Source of the DNA: Escherichia coli
GTDB lineage: Bacteria > Pseudomonadota > Gammaproteobacteria > Enterobacterales > Enterobacteriaceae
Assembly (NCBI RefSeq): GCF_048403405.1
Contig: NZ_CP183129.1
Length of the DNA stretch: 64,000 nt
Direction: 5' to 3' (one strand)
Made by a program: the position numbers. Each line of letters begins with the position of its first letter. Positions within the stretch are counted from its first letter, which is position 1. Below are positions 33,257 to 36,200 of this stretch, one piece after another.

Positions 33257-36200
33257 TAATCTCGATTGATATCGAACAAAGGGCCTGCGGGCCCTTTTTT
33301 CATTGTTTTCAGCGTACAAACACAGTTTTTTGGTGTACTCTTGCGACCGTTCGCATGAGGATAATCACGTATGGAAATAAGCTTTACCCGCGTGGCACTG
33401 CTGGCTGCCGCGCTCTTCTTTGTTGGTTGCGATCAAAAAACACAACCCGCCAAAACCCACGCTACTGAAGTTACCGTTCTTGAAGGCAAAACCATGGGTA
33501 CCTTCTGGCGTGCCAGCATTCCGGGCATTGACGCCAAACGCAGTGCCGAACTTAAAGAAAAGATTCAGACCCAGCTGGACGCCGACGATCAGCTGCTTTC
33601 GACCTATAAAAAAGATTCCGCGCTGATGCGATTTAACGACTCGCAAAGTTTATCGCCGTGGCCGGTAAGTGAAGCGATGGCCGATATCGTCACCACCTCG
33701 CTGCGCATTGGCGCAAGGACCGATGGTGCGATGGATATAACCGTCGGGCCGCTGGTGAATCTGTGGGGCTTTGGCCCGGAACAACAGCCGGTTCAAATTC
33801 CGAGCCAGGAACAGATCGATGCGATGAAAGCCAAAACCGGCTTACAGCACCTGTCGGTCATTAATCAGTCGCATCAGCAATATCTGCAAAAAGACCTGCC
33901 GGATTTATATGTCGATCTCTCCACTGTCGGTGAAGGTTATGCGGCGGATCACCTGGCACGCTTGATGGAGCAGGAAGGTATTTCTCGCTACCTGGTGTCG
34001 GTGGGCGGGGCGCTGAACAGCCGTGGTATGAACGGTGAAGGCCAGCCGTGGCGAGTGGCGATTCAAAAACCAACCGATAAAGAAAACGCAGTTCAGGCGG
34101 TGGTGGATATCAACGGCCACGGTATCAGCACCTCCGGCAGCTACCGCAACTATTACGAACTGGACGGCAAACGCCTTTCTCATGTTATCGATCCGCAAAC
34201 CGGACGACCTATCGAGCATAATCTGGTATCCGTGACGGTGATTGCACCGACGGCGCTGGAAGCCGACGCCTGGGATACAGGTTTGATGGTGCTCGGGCCA
34301 GAGAAAGCCAAAGAGGTTGTTCGCCGGGAAGGGTTGGCGGTTTATATGATCACCAAAGAGGGCGATAGCTTTAAAACCTGGATGTCGCCGCAGTTTAAAA
34401 GCTTCCTGGTGAGCGAAAAAAATTAAAGCGCAAGATTGTTGGTTTTTGTGTGATGGTGACCGGACAGACTAAAGGCTATCCTTAACCAGGGAGCTGATTA
34501 TGAAAAACGCCACACGCTTAACTGACGATCAACGCTGGCAATCTGTCTTAGCACGCGACCCGAACGCCGACGGCGAATTCGTTTTCGCCGTGCGCACCAC
34601 GGGTATCTTTTGCCGTCCGTCTTGCCGCGCCAGACATGCCTTGCGGGAAAACGTTTCTTTCTATACGGATGCCAGCGAGGCGCTTGCCGCTGGCTTTCGC
34701 CCCTGCAAACGTTGTCAGCCAGATAAAGCCAATGCCCAGCAACATCGCCTTGATAAAATTACCCACGCCTGCCGACTGCTGGAACAGGAAACGCCTGTAA
34801 CGCTGGAAGCCTTAGCTGACCAGGTGGCGATGAGTCCGTTCCATTTGCATCGATTGTTTAAAGCGACTACCGGAATGACGCCGAAAGCCTGGCAACAGGC
34901 ATGGCGTGCTCGCCGTTTACGCGACTCGCTGGCGAAAGGGGAGAGCGTGACTACATCTATTCTTAACGCTGGATTCCCCGACAGCAGCAGTTACTACCGT
35001 AAAGCCGACGAAACGTTGGGCATGACGGCTAAACAGTTTCGTCACGGAGGTGAAAATCTGGCTGTGCGTTATGCGCTGGCTGATTGTGAACTGGGCCGTT
35101 GCCTGGTGGCTGAAAGCGAGCGGGGGATTTGCGCGATATTGCTGGGCGATGATGACGCGACATTAATCAGCGAGTTGCAGCAGATGTTTCCCGCTGCCGA
35201 CAACGCGCCTGCCGATTTGACGTTTCAACAACATGTGCGTGACGTGATCGCCAGCCTCAATCAACGCGATACGCCGCTGACGTTACCGCTGGATATTCGC
35301 GGCACTGCTTTTCAGCAACAAGTCTGGCAGGCACTGCGCACGATACCTTGCGGTGAAACCGTCAGTTATCAGCAACTGGCTAACGCCATCGGCAAACCGA
35401 AAGCGGTACGGGCCGTTGCCAGCGCCTGTGCCGCCAACAAGCTGGCTATCGTAATACCCTGTCATCGAGTGGTCCGTGGTGATGGCACACTTTCAGGTTA
35501 CCGCTGGGGCGTGTCGCGTAAAGCGCAACTGCTGCGCCGCGAAGCTGAGAATGAGGAGAGGTAATGTTGGATCTGTTTGCCGATGCTGAACCGTGGCAAG
35601 AGCCACTGGCGGCTGGTGCGGTAATTTTACGGCGTTTTGCTTTTAATGCTGCGGAGCAACTGATCCGCGATATTAATGACGTTGCCAGCCAGTCGCCGTT
35701 TCGCCAGATGGTCACCCCCGGGGGATATACTATGTCGGTGGCGATGACCAACTGTGGGCATCTGGGCTGGACGACCCATCGGCAAGGTTATCTCTATTCG
35801 CCCATTGATCCGCAAACAAATAAACCGTGGCCCGCCATGCCACAAAGCTTTCATGATTTATGTCAACGTGCGGCTACGGCGGCGGGCTATCCAGATTTCC
35901 AGCCAGATGCTTGTCTTATCAACCGCTACGCTCCTGGCGCGAAACTGTCGCTGCATCAGGATAAAGACGAACCGGATCTGCGCGCGCCGATTGTTTCTGT
36001 TTCTCTGGGCTTACCCGCGATTTTTCAATTTGGCGGCCTGAAACGAAATGATCCGCTAAAACGTTTGTTGTTGGAACATGGCGATGTGGTGGTATGGGGC
36101 GGTGAATCGCGGCTGTTTTATCATGGGATTCAACCGTTGAAAGCGGGGTTTCATCCACTCACCACCGACTGCCGCTACAACCTGACATTCCGTCAGGCAG

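What the first reader, a model, noticed from the sequence alone, without database searches (positions are those of the whole stretch)
34420..34432. Ada box overlaps the apbE stop codon
The ada promoter recognition element aaattaaagcgca begins inside the last codons of apbE (stop at 34424-34426), so read-through from apbE would run across the ada promoter. This is a compact arrangement of a housekeeping lipoprotein gene and the adaptive-response operon.
Basis: partly seen in the sequence, partly recalled or inferred. Interest (0 to 1): 0.15.

Follow-up and report, generated by a model that had tools for sequence, protein, structure and literature searches.

The report
Ada box overlapping apbE stop codon
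This is the textbook binding site for the DNA-repair regulator Ada in front of the E. coli ada-alkB operon; it does sit on the last codon and stop codon of the upstream gene apbE, an ordinary arrangement that proves to be conserved across enteric bacteria.

Summary
AAATTAAAGCGCA lies at 34420-34432. The last apbE codon, AAT (34421-23), is the Ada "A box". The apbE stop TAA (34424-26) lies in the 6-nt spacer. GCAA (34430-33) is the "B box". The window is E. coli chromosome with the gene order ompC-apbE-ada-alkB-yojI. From 34412 to 34448 the sequence is identical to K-12 MG1655, where this is the characterised, methyl-Ada-dependent ada promoter, so the element is already known.

New detail from 80 Enterobacteriaceae species:
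- apbE directly precedes ada in all 80.
- The apbE stop is TAA in 80/80 and the last codon is AAT in 79/80. Other invariant apbE Asn codons mix AAT and AAC, and the ada and alkB stop codons vary.
- AATTAAA-nn-GCAAG…GGTTTTT is near-invariant and is followed at fixed spacing by a -10-like CAnnnT (34465-70).
- The 31-nt distance from B box to -10 equals that in the E. coli aidB promoter.

The Ada operator therefore appears to constrain the end of apbE at the DNA level. None of 82 sequences has an intrinsic terminator between apbE and ada, so read-through across the promoter is plausible. Its size and function are untested. An anti-Shine-Dalgarno helix seen in this strain is not conserved and was rejected. 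Interest is low.

The parts
33371..34426 (+). apbE (ftp) CDS, FAD:protein FMN transferase lipoprotein. Its last 3-4 codons carry the upstream half of the ada promoter.
   Evidence: ORF; translation; RefSeq annotation at 100% identity; Pfam ApbE PF02424 E=6e-84, domain ending at residue 325 of 351.
34416..34422 (+). A7 run inside apbE codons GAA AAA AAT. This is the A/T-rich upstream part of the Ada/RNA polymerase alpha-subunit contact region (UP-like).
   Evidence: Moderately conserved (0.51-1.0) in 82 sequences. The UP-like role comes from the literature as I recall it (Landini and Volkert) and was not tested here.
34420..34432 (+). Classical 13-nt Ada box AAATTAAAGCGCA (consensus AAANNAAAGCGCA).
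   Evidence: Identical in K-12. Consensus quoted in PMC6505713.
34421..34423 (+). A box AAT, which is also the last sense codon (Asn351) of apbE.
   Evidence: AAT in 79/80 species. The third base is fixed although 5 other invariant Asn codons of apbE mix AAT and AAC.
34424..34426 (+). apbE stop codon TAA, lying in the A/T part of the Ada site (first 3 nt of the 6-nt spacer).
   Evidence: TAA in 80/80 species, against ada TAA 54 / TGA 21 / TAG 5 and alkB 65/10/3.
34430..34433 (+). B box GCAA, preceded by C at 34429 (the reported high-affinity variant).
   Evidence: GCAAG is invariant in 82 sequences. The C-versus-A effect on affinity is quoted in PMC3788762 and PMC4437013.
34441..34447 (+). Conserved GGTTTTT block: the -35 region of the ada promoter, a poor match to TTGACA.
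   Evidence: 83-100% conserved in 82 sequences. It lies 16-18 nt upstream of the -10-like hexamer. Assignment is inferred.
34465..34470 (+). -10-like hexamer CAGACT (K-12 CAGCCT; family pattern CAnnnT).
   Evidence: C, A and T are 99% conserved at a fixed, ungapped distance from the Ada box, after 17 unconserved nt. Hexamer spectrum. The 31-nt B-box-to--10 spacing matches E. coli aidB, GCAA-N31-CATACT. Assignment is inferred.
34476..34478 (+). Predicted ada transcription start (6-8 nt after the -10-like hexamer).
   Evidence: Inference. Consistent with the tiling-array boundary at about 34480 between the MNNG-insensitive apbE segment and induced ada. Not mapped here.
34488..34493 (+). ada Shine-Dalgarno AGGGAG, 6 nt before the ATG.
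   Evidence: AGGAG-type motif conserved in all junctions.
34500..35564 (+). ada CDS (354 aa) with the methyl-acceptor and DNA-reading residues intact.
   Evidence: C38, C42, C69, C72, R45, R71, F114, H115, R118 and C321 are present. PDB relatives 1zgw, 1u8b, 1wpk, 1adn, 1sfe.
35564..36214 (+). alkB CDS. Its start overlaps the ada stop by 1 nt (ada-alkB operon).
   Evidence: The same 1-nt overlap occurs in 73 of 80 species.

Best explanation
The element is the canonical operator and promoter of the E. coli ada-alkB operon.

[quoted passage not shown] Its N-terminal Zn domain then reads the A/T-rich A box (AATTAAA) and its helix-turn-helix reads the B box (GCAA). Bound methyl-Ada recruits sigma-70 RNA polymerase to an intrinsically very weak promoter. 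Here that promoter is a -35 region at GGTTTTT (34441-47) and a -10-like CAGACT (34465-70), with a start near 34477. Ada thereby switches on its own gene and alkB.

Shown here: the upstream half of the site is physically inside apbE. The A7 run and the A box are codons Glu-Lys-Asn, and the stop TAA supplies the next A/T pairs. The overlap is ancient within Enterobacteriaceae, and the operator appears to constrain apbE's final codon and its stop codon at the DNA level.

Inferred: no intrinsic terminator separates the genes, so polymerases finishing apbE are expected to traverse the ada promoter and probably enter ada at a low level. The size and role of that read-through are unknown.
For: Identity:
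- The window is 100% identical over 3 kb to E. coli chromosomes annotated apbE-ada-alkB-yojI.
- 34412-34448 is identical to K-12 MG1655, with the same 73-nt spacer.
- The motif fits both AAANNAAAGCGCA and AAT-N6-GCAA (PMC6505713; PMC3788762; PMC4437013).
- Ada here keeps C38, R45, R71, F114, H115, R118 and C321 and all Ada Pfam domains. Structures of N-Ada exist, 1zgw and 1u8b.

Conservation and geometry:
- apbE precedes ada in 80/80 species representatives.
- AATTAAA and GCAAG are invariant and GGTTTTT is 83-100% conserved. Seventeen unconserved nt follow, then CAnnnT with C, A and T at 99%.
- The B-box-to--10 gap of 31 nt is the same as in E. coli aidB. alkA has the site about 9 nt closer, as the literature describes.

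DNA-level constraint on apbE:
- Only 3 of 165 invariant-residue degenerate codon columns have a fixed third base, and one is the terminal AAT.
- The residues just upstream vary, and the tail lies outside the Pfam ApbE domain.
- The stop is TAA in 80/80, while the ada and alkB stops vary.

Read-through:
- No terminator-like site was found, and none in 82 junctions.
- The intergenic RNA is G/T-rich and C-poor (22 G, 12 C of 73). That composition makes a poor Rho loading site.
- The tiling-array apbE segment runs to about 54 nt past the stop.
- No apbE, ada or alkB 3' end is listed in the held Term-seq supplements (weak evidence, because files may be truncated).
Against: - No transcription start, footprint or binding experiment could be consulted or run here. 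The -35, -10 and +1 assignments are phylogenetic inference plus my recollection of the literature.
- The -35 region matches TTGACA poorly. This is expected for an activator-dependent promoter but does not confirm the assignment.
- The 80 species are related, so 80/80 counts are not independent events. The internal controls (other Asn codons, other stop codons) mitigate this but do not remove it.
- Basal Ada is only about 1 molecule per cell (PMC8643705). Efficient read-through plus translation is therefore unlikely, which implies insulation I did not find: Rho, RNA decay, or low apbE transcription.
Confidence: 0.92

Rival explanations
1. Functional coupling: apbE-ada-alkB behaves partly as an operon. 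Read-through from the constitutive apbE promoter supplies the Ada-independent basal Ada (about 1 molecule per cell) that seeds the positive-feedback loop. On this view the missing terminator and the overlap are selected features.
For: - No terminator in 82 of 82 junctions.
- The C-poor intergenic RNA is a poor Rho substrate.
- The apbE array segment extends into the ada leader region.
- The ada Shine-Dalgarno is intact on any read-through RNA.
- Basal ada production is modelled as a constant, damage-independent, Poissonian process whose molecular source is not specified (PMC6818145; PMC8643705).
- Synteny and spacing are conserved in 80 species.
Against: - There are no junction-spanning transcript data.
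- The very low basal Ada level argues that little translatable read-through exists.
- A weak Ada-independent initiation at Pada explains basal expression equally well.
- Conservation of the junction is fully explained by the operator and promoter themselves.
- SMRT-Cappable-seq supplements held here do not list these genes.
Confidence: 0.2
2. The conserved AATTAAA...GGTTTTT block is mainly a 3'-end or termination signal for apbE, an A-tract / T-tract terminator, rather than an Ada operator.
For: An A-run and a T-run flank the block. The T5 run is conserved.
Against: - No stem of at least 5 bp precedes the T-run in any of 82 sequences or in the tool scan.
- The invariant positions are exactly the published Ada A and B boxes.
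- The same AAT-N6-GCAA-N31-(-10) layout occurs at aidB.
Confidence: 0.03
3. Translational insulation: on read-through RNA, the apbE sequence AGCUUCCUGG (34400-09) pairs with the ada ribosome-binding region CCAGGGAGCU (34486-95). This would hide the Shine-Dalgarno, so only transcripts started at Pada are translated.
For: RNA fold of 34395-34505: -30.4 kcal/mol, z = -2.94, 1 of 200 shuffles as stable, with exactly this helix. Duplex energy is -22.7 kcal/mol in this strain.
Against: - The helix is lineage-specific. K-12 has CTT GTC here and only -13.9 kcal/mol.
- Across 82 junctions the duplex is no stronger than with other apbE segments: mean z +0.17, and 5% have z below -2.
- No consistent pairing register or covariation was seen.
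Confidence: 0.04
4. Chance motif: the 13-mer is a coincidental match with no regulatory role in this genome.
For: 11% of shuffled windows contain at least one match. The short AAT-N6-GCAA form is common by chance.
Against: The site is in the exact position and orientation upstream of ada, is identical to the characterised K-12 promoter, and is invariant in 80 species.
Confidence: 0.01

Closest known systems
E. coli K-12 ada (ada-alkB) promoter with its Ada box
   Same: Identical sequence from 34412 to 34448, including the 13-mer, the A and B boxes and the T-run. It has the same 73-nt apbE-ada spacer, the same genes on both sides and the same overlap with the apbE (ftp, b2214) stop codon.
   Different: There are three substitutions downstream in the spacer: T for C at 34449, A for G at 34464 and A for C at 34468. 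The last turns the -10-like CAGCCT into CAGACT, one step closer to TATAAT. There are four differences in the last 40 nt of apbE. No functional difference is demonstrated.
E. coli aidB promoter (Ada-dependent, same architectural class as ada)
   Same: AAT-N6-GCAA followed after 31 nt by a CAnACT-type -10 (CATACT). It is also wedged against the stop codon of a co-directional upstream gene: yjfC TAA-G-AAT.
   Different: The base 5' of the B box is A, not C, which is reported to give about 10-fold lower affinity (PMC4437013). The A box starts 1 nt after the upstream stop rather than being the last codon.
E. coli alkA promoter
   Same: It contains AAT-N6-GCAA (gAATatgaaaGCAA) followed by AGCGCA and is activated by Ada.
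   Different: The Ada site is about 9 nt closer to the -10-like TATGCT, so it overlaps the -35 region. The activation mode differs, and unmethylated Ada also works (PMC4437013). The upstream gene is divergent.
Salmonella ada promoter (GAATTAAAACGCA)
   Same: Same overlap: the last apbE codon AAT plus TAA, then AACGCAAGATTGCGGGTTTTT (L025, L026). The published motif is quoted in PMC3788762.
   Different: The core is AAAACGCA instead of AAAGCGCA. The spacer is 83 nt, with extra bases in the leader. Salmonella Ada is reported to be a weaker activator (PMC3788762).

Membership tests
Ada-regulon promoter, ada/aidB type | A box (AAT) - 6 nt - B box (GCAA) in the gene's orientation | tested here: met
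   AAT 34421-23, TAAAGC, GCAA 34430-33. Definition from PMC6505713, PMC3788762 and PMC4437013.
Ada-regulon promoter, ada/aidB type | Classical Ada box AAANNAAAGCGCA | tested here: met
   Exact match at 34420-32, the only one in 64 kb, against 0.11 expected.
Ada-regulon promoter, ada/aidB type | The site lies upstream of, and does not overlap, the -35 region of a weak sigma-70 promoter, with fixed spacing to the -10 | tested here: met
   GCAA-N31-CAGACT. The spacing is invariant in 79/80 species and equals that of aidB. No canonical promoter is detected by the consensus scan, as expected for an activator-dependent promoter. The -10 and -35 are inferred, not mapped.
Ada-regulon promoter, ada/aidB type | Mapped transcription start compatible with the box position (box around -60 to -40) | not testable with these tools
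   The primary papers are not held. The predicted +1 of about 34477 puts the AAT..GCAA centre near -50. The tiling-array boundary at about 34480 is compatible.
Ada-regulon promoter, ada/aidB type | Methylation-dependent Ada binding and activation | not testable with these tools
   Requires EMSA, footprinting or reporter assays. It is inferred from sequence identity to the K-12 promoter.
Ada-regulon promoter, ada/aidB type | A cognate regulator is present with the methyl acceptor Cys38 and the DNA-reading residues R45, R71 (A box) and F114, H115, R118 (B box) | tested here: met
   All are present in the window's Ada. Residue roles from PMC3788762 and PMC4437013. Pfam domains; PDB 1zgw and 1u8b.
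ada-alkB operon | ada immediately followed by alkB on the same strand, translationally coupled | tested here: met
   ada 34500-35564 and alkB 35564-36214, overlapping by 1 nt. The same holds in 73/80 species.
Read-through (terminator-less) tandem gene pair | No intrinsic terminator between the upstream stop and the downstream promoter or start | tested here: met
   None. None in 82 junctions.
Read-through (terminator-less) tandem gene pair | Transcripts physically spanning both genes | not testable with these tools
   The only indirect evidence is an array segment extending about 54 nt past the apbE stop. The long-read and Term-seq supplements held here do not list these genes.

The most novel reading that the evidence does not exclude
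The apbE/Ada-box overlap is a selected, family-wide dual-use sequence, and terminator-less read-through from apbE is the molecular source of the rare, Poissonian basal Ada synthesis (about 1 molecule per cell). That basal synthesis decides when a cell can switch on the adaptive response. apbE transcription, and leakage through the ompC terminator upstream, would then set the cell-to-cell heterogeneity in alkylation-induced mutagenesis. The same logic might apply at yjfC-aidB.
Probability: 0.15. Interest if true: 0.45.

Novelty: already known. Interest (0 to 1): 0.12.

Why it matters
The element itself is textbook knowledge: the ada promoter is a classic example of a transcription factor activated by a DNA-repair reaction. 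Finding it confirms correct gene calling but adds nothing new.

The modest extra value is comparative. The operator shares bases with the upstream coding sequence, and the last codon and stop codon of apbE appear to be frozen by it across at least 80 enterobacterial species. That is a clean small example of a regulatory site constraining synonymous and stop-codon choice.

No terminator separates apbE from ada in any species examined. This raises a testable question about where the very low basal Ada level comes from. Single-cell studies identify that basal level as the sole source of stochastic delays in the adaptive response.

Tried and rejected
1. Anti-Shine-Dalgarno insulation helix (apbE 34400-09 pairing with ada 34486-95). 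It is striking in this strain (z = -2.94, -22.7 kcal/mol). It is weak in K-12 (-13.9) and no better than control apbE segments across 82 junctions (mean z +0.17). Rejected.

2. apbE terminator hypothesis. No hairpin plus T-run in the tool scan or in 82 junctions. Rejected.

3. Using AAT-N6-GCAA alone as evidence. There are 5 matches against 15.6 expected, so it is uninformative. The same weakness is noted in PMC6505713.

4. Retrieving a mapped ada start or footprint. Nakabeppu and Sekiguchi 1986, Landini and Volkert 2000, Landini and Busby 1999, Landini 1994, Hakura 1991, Rippa 2011 and Thomason 2015 are not in the held library. The Lindahl 1987 lecture is held only as a reference list.

5. 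Transcript-level evidence for apbE-ada co-transcription. The SMRT-Cappable-seq and Term-seq supplements have no entries for apbE, ada or alkB.

6. Counting exact conservation of the box in all 5,426 E. coli genomes with a 46-nt megablast query. Only 1,178 genomes were returned. I suspect flanking SNPs and low-complexity masking limit short queries, but did not check this. The result was not used as evidence.

7. Rfam scan of 31.5-36.5 kb. Only MicF was found, with nothing at the junction.

8. Literature search for any mention of the apbE/ada overlap. None was found in the held library.
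Full report
**Observation.** Positions 34420-34432 of the window read AAATTAAAGCGCA. 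The ORF 33371..34426 (+) ends ...AGC GAA AAA AAT TAA, with its stop at 34424-34426. The next ORF starts at 34500. AAANNAAAGCGCA occurs once in the 64-kb window on both strands, against 0.11 expected from dinucleotide shuffles. The shorter revised consensus AAT-N6-GCAA is not informative alone (5 matches against 15.6 expected).

**Context.** The 3 kb around the site is 100% identical to several complete E. coli chromosomes and at least 90% identical in 5,421 of 5,426 genomes. RefSeq annotation of an identical genome gives ompC, apbE, ada, alkB and yojI on one strand. K-12 MG1655 has the same order and the same 73-nt apbE(ftp)-ada spacer.
- Pfam confirms ApbE, the four Ada domains and the AlkB dioxygenase domain.
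- The window's Ada keeps the Zn/methyl-acceptor cysteines C38, C42, C69 and C72. It also keeps the residues reported to read the A box (R45, R71) and the B box (F114, H115, R118), and the C321 active site (residue roles from PMC3788762 and PMC4437013).
- Solved N-Ada structures include 1zgw and 1u8b.
- Rfam finds only MicF upstream of ompC and nothing at the junction.

**What it is.** From 34412 to 34448 the window is identical to K-12. That stretch carries the Ada recognition sequence of the ada promoter as quoted in the literature. The older form is AAANNAAAGCGCA. The revised form is A box AAT, a 6-nt spacer and B box GCAA (PMC6505713; PMC3788762; PMC4437013). In window coordinates:
- the A box is 34421-23, which is the last apbE codon (Asn351);
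- the spacer TAAAGC begins with the TAA stop;
- the B box is 34430-33;
- the base 5' of the B box is C, the variant reported to give about 10-fold higher Ada affinity than the A found at alkA and aidB.

The A7 run 34416-22 lies in codons Glu-Lys-Asn.

**Comparative evidence.** A scan of one genome per species with the Ada protein returned 80 Enterobacteriaceae loci. Genera include Escherichia, Citrobacter, Salmonella, Kluyvera, Trabulsiella, Kosakonia, Enterobacter, Lelliottia, Leclercia, Raoultella and Klebsiella. apbE lies immediately upstream of ada in all 80.

Anchoring the sequences, ungapped, on the apbE stop gives this pattern:
- AATTAAA (34421-27) and GCAAG (34430-34) are invariant.
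- TTG (34436-38) is 88-100% conserved and GGTTTTT (34441-47) is 83-100% conserved.
- Seventeen unconserved positions follow.
- C-A-n-n-n-T at 34465-70 has C, A and T each at 99%.

A at position 2 and T at position 6 are the key -10 positions, so I assign 34465-70 (CAGACT; K-12 CAGCCT) as the -10 hexamer. I place the -35 region in the GGTTTTT block and predict a start at about 34476-78. This part is inference.

Two things support the assignment. First, the E. coli aidB promoter has the same layout, AAT-N6-GCAA-N31-CATACT. In alkA the site is about 9 nt closer to its -10, matching the published statement that the Ada sites sit at different distances. Second, a tiling-array study reports an MNNG-insensitive segment covering apbE from 25 nt upstream of its ATG to about 54 nt past its stop. 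That end corresponds to about 34480, assuming the 1,978-nt offset between U00096.2 and U00096.3, which I supply from my own knowledge. The boundary with the induced ada transcript therefore falls where I predict +1.

From memory, and not verifiable here, the methyl-Ada DNase footprint is -63 to -31. With +1 at about 34478 that equals 34415-34447, which coincides with the conserved block.

**Does the operator constrain apbE?** In a codon alignment of 75 full-length apbE genes, 165 columns have an invariant degenerate amino acid. Only 3 of those have a fixed third base, and the terminal AAT (74 AAT, 1 CAT) is one of them. The five other invariant Asn columns all mix AAC and AAT. The residues just upstream vary (identity 0.33-0.88), and the tail lies beyond the Pfam ApbE domain, which ends at residue 325 of 351. 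The apbE stop is TAA in 80/80, whereas the ada stop is TAA 54 / TGA 21 / TAG 5 and the alkB stop is 65/10/3. Species relatedness inflates raw counts, but the internal controls share the same phylogeny. The simplest reading is that the Ada A-box region, which needs A/T pairs, fixes apbE's last codon and stop.

**Read-through.** The consensus scan finds no terminator-like hairpin plus T-run between 34340 and 34588. A scan with the same criteria finds none in 82 junctions. The 73-nt spacer is G/T-rich and C-poor, which makes it an unlikely Rho loading site.

Whether it continues into ada, and whether that matters, is open. Basal Ada is about 1 molecule per cell and is made by a constant, non-bursty process (PMC8643705; PMC6818145). 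That level either reflects rare read-through or argues for efficient insulation. No junction-spanning transcript data were found.

**Rejected idea.** Folding 34395-34505 as RNA gave a significant structure (z = -2.94) in which apbE AGCUUCCUGG pairs with the ada Shine-Dalgarno region. This suggested translational insulation of read-through RNA. The helix depends on strain-specific synonymous bases: -22.7 kcal/mol here against -13.9 in K-12. Across 82 junctions it is no stronger than pairing with other apbE segments (mean z +0.17). I reject it as a conserved mechanism.

**Verdict.** The finding is real and correctly interpreted, and it is the already-known ada promoter. The overlap with apbE is present in K-12 and is a positional fact, not a new system. 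The added observations are the family-wide conservation of the overlap, the frozen AAT-TAA, the absence of any terminator and the parallel at yjfC-aidB. They are modest and, as far as the held literature shows, not discussed elsewhere. Interest is low (0.12). The most novel reading not excluded, that apbE read-through seeds basal Ada, has a probability of about 0.15.

Noticed in passing
window 32828-32830 (ompC 32165-33262, +): ompC has an in-frame TAG at codon 222. The single difference from the intact ompC of strain M217 is G->A at 32829 (TGG Trp -> TAG). None of 5,426 complete E. coli genomes matches this 1.2 kb at 100%, so it is a private porin-inactivating mutation or a sequencing error.
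   Followed up: partly
L084 (K-12 4414000-4414500) positions 190-243: The aidB promoter repeats the arrangement. The stop codon of the co-directional upstream gene yjfC abuts the Ada A box (TAA-G-AAT-gtttta-GCAA), and the B box is 31 nt from a CATACT -10, the same spacing as at ada. Conservation in other species was not examined.
   Followed up: partly
window 34400-34409 and 34486-34495: In this strain a 10-bp complementarity links the apbE 3' coding sequence and the ada ribosome-binding site (fold z = -2.94). It is absent or weaker in K-12 and not conserved in 82 junctions.
   Followed up: yes
L003-L082, junction sequences: The E. coli-type core AAAGCGCAA, with C before the B box, is a minority (10/80). 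Most genera have AAAAAGCAA, which is alkA/aidB-like with A before the B box (61/80 have A). If the published affinity rule holds, autoregulation strength may differ between genera.
   Followed up: no
L024 (Citrobacter sedlakii), apbE stop to ada ATG: The Ada box and promoter stay at the apbE stop, but the ada ATG is 227 nt away because about 150 nt are inserted in the leader. L033 (Enterobacter asburiae) is the only locus with CAT instead of AAT as the last apbE codon.
   Followed up: no
window 33278-33297: A strong terminator-like hairpin (AAAGGGCCTGCGGGCCCTTT plus a T-run) lies between ompC and apbE. A weaker terminator-like hit at 34321-34340 lies inside the apbE coding sequence and is within chance expectation (4 found against 2.1 expected).
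   Followed up: no
window 31738-31831 (-): MicF sRNA gene, divergent from ompC (Rfam RF00033, 116.8 bits). This is the expected neighbour.
   Followed up: yes
window 35562-35566: The ada stop and the alkB start overlap by one base (TAATG). The same overlap occurs in 73 of 80 species, consistent with translational coupling in the ada-alkB operon.
   Followed up: partly
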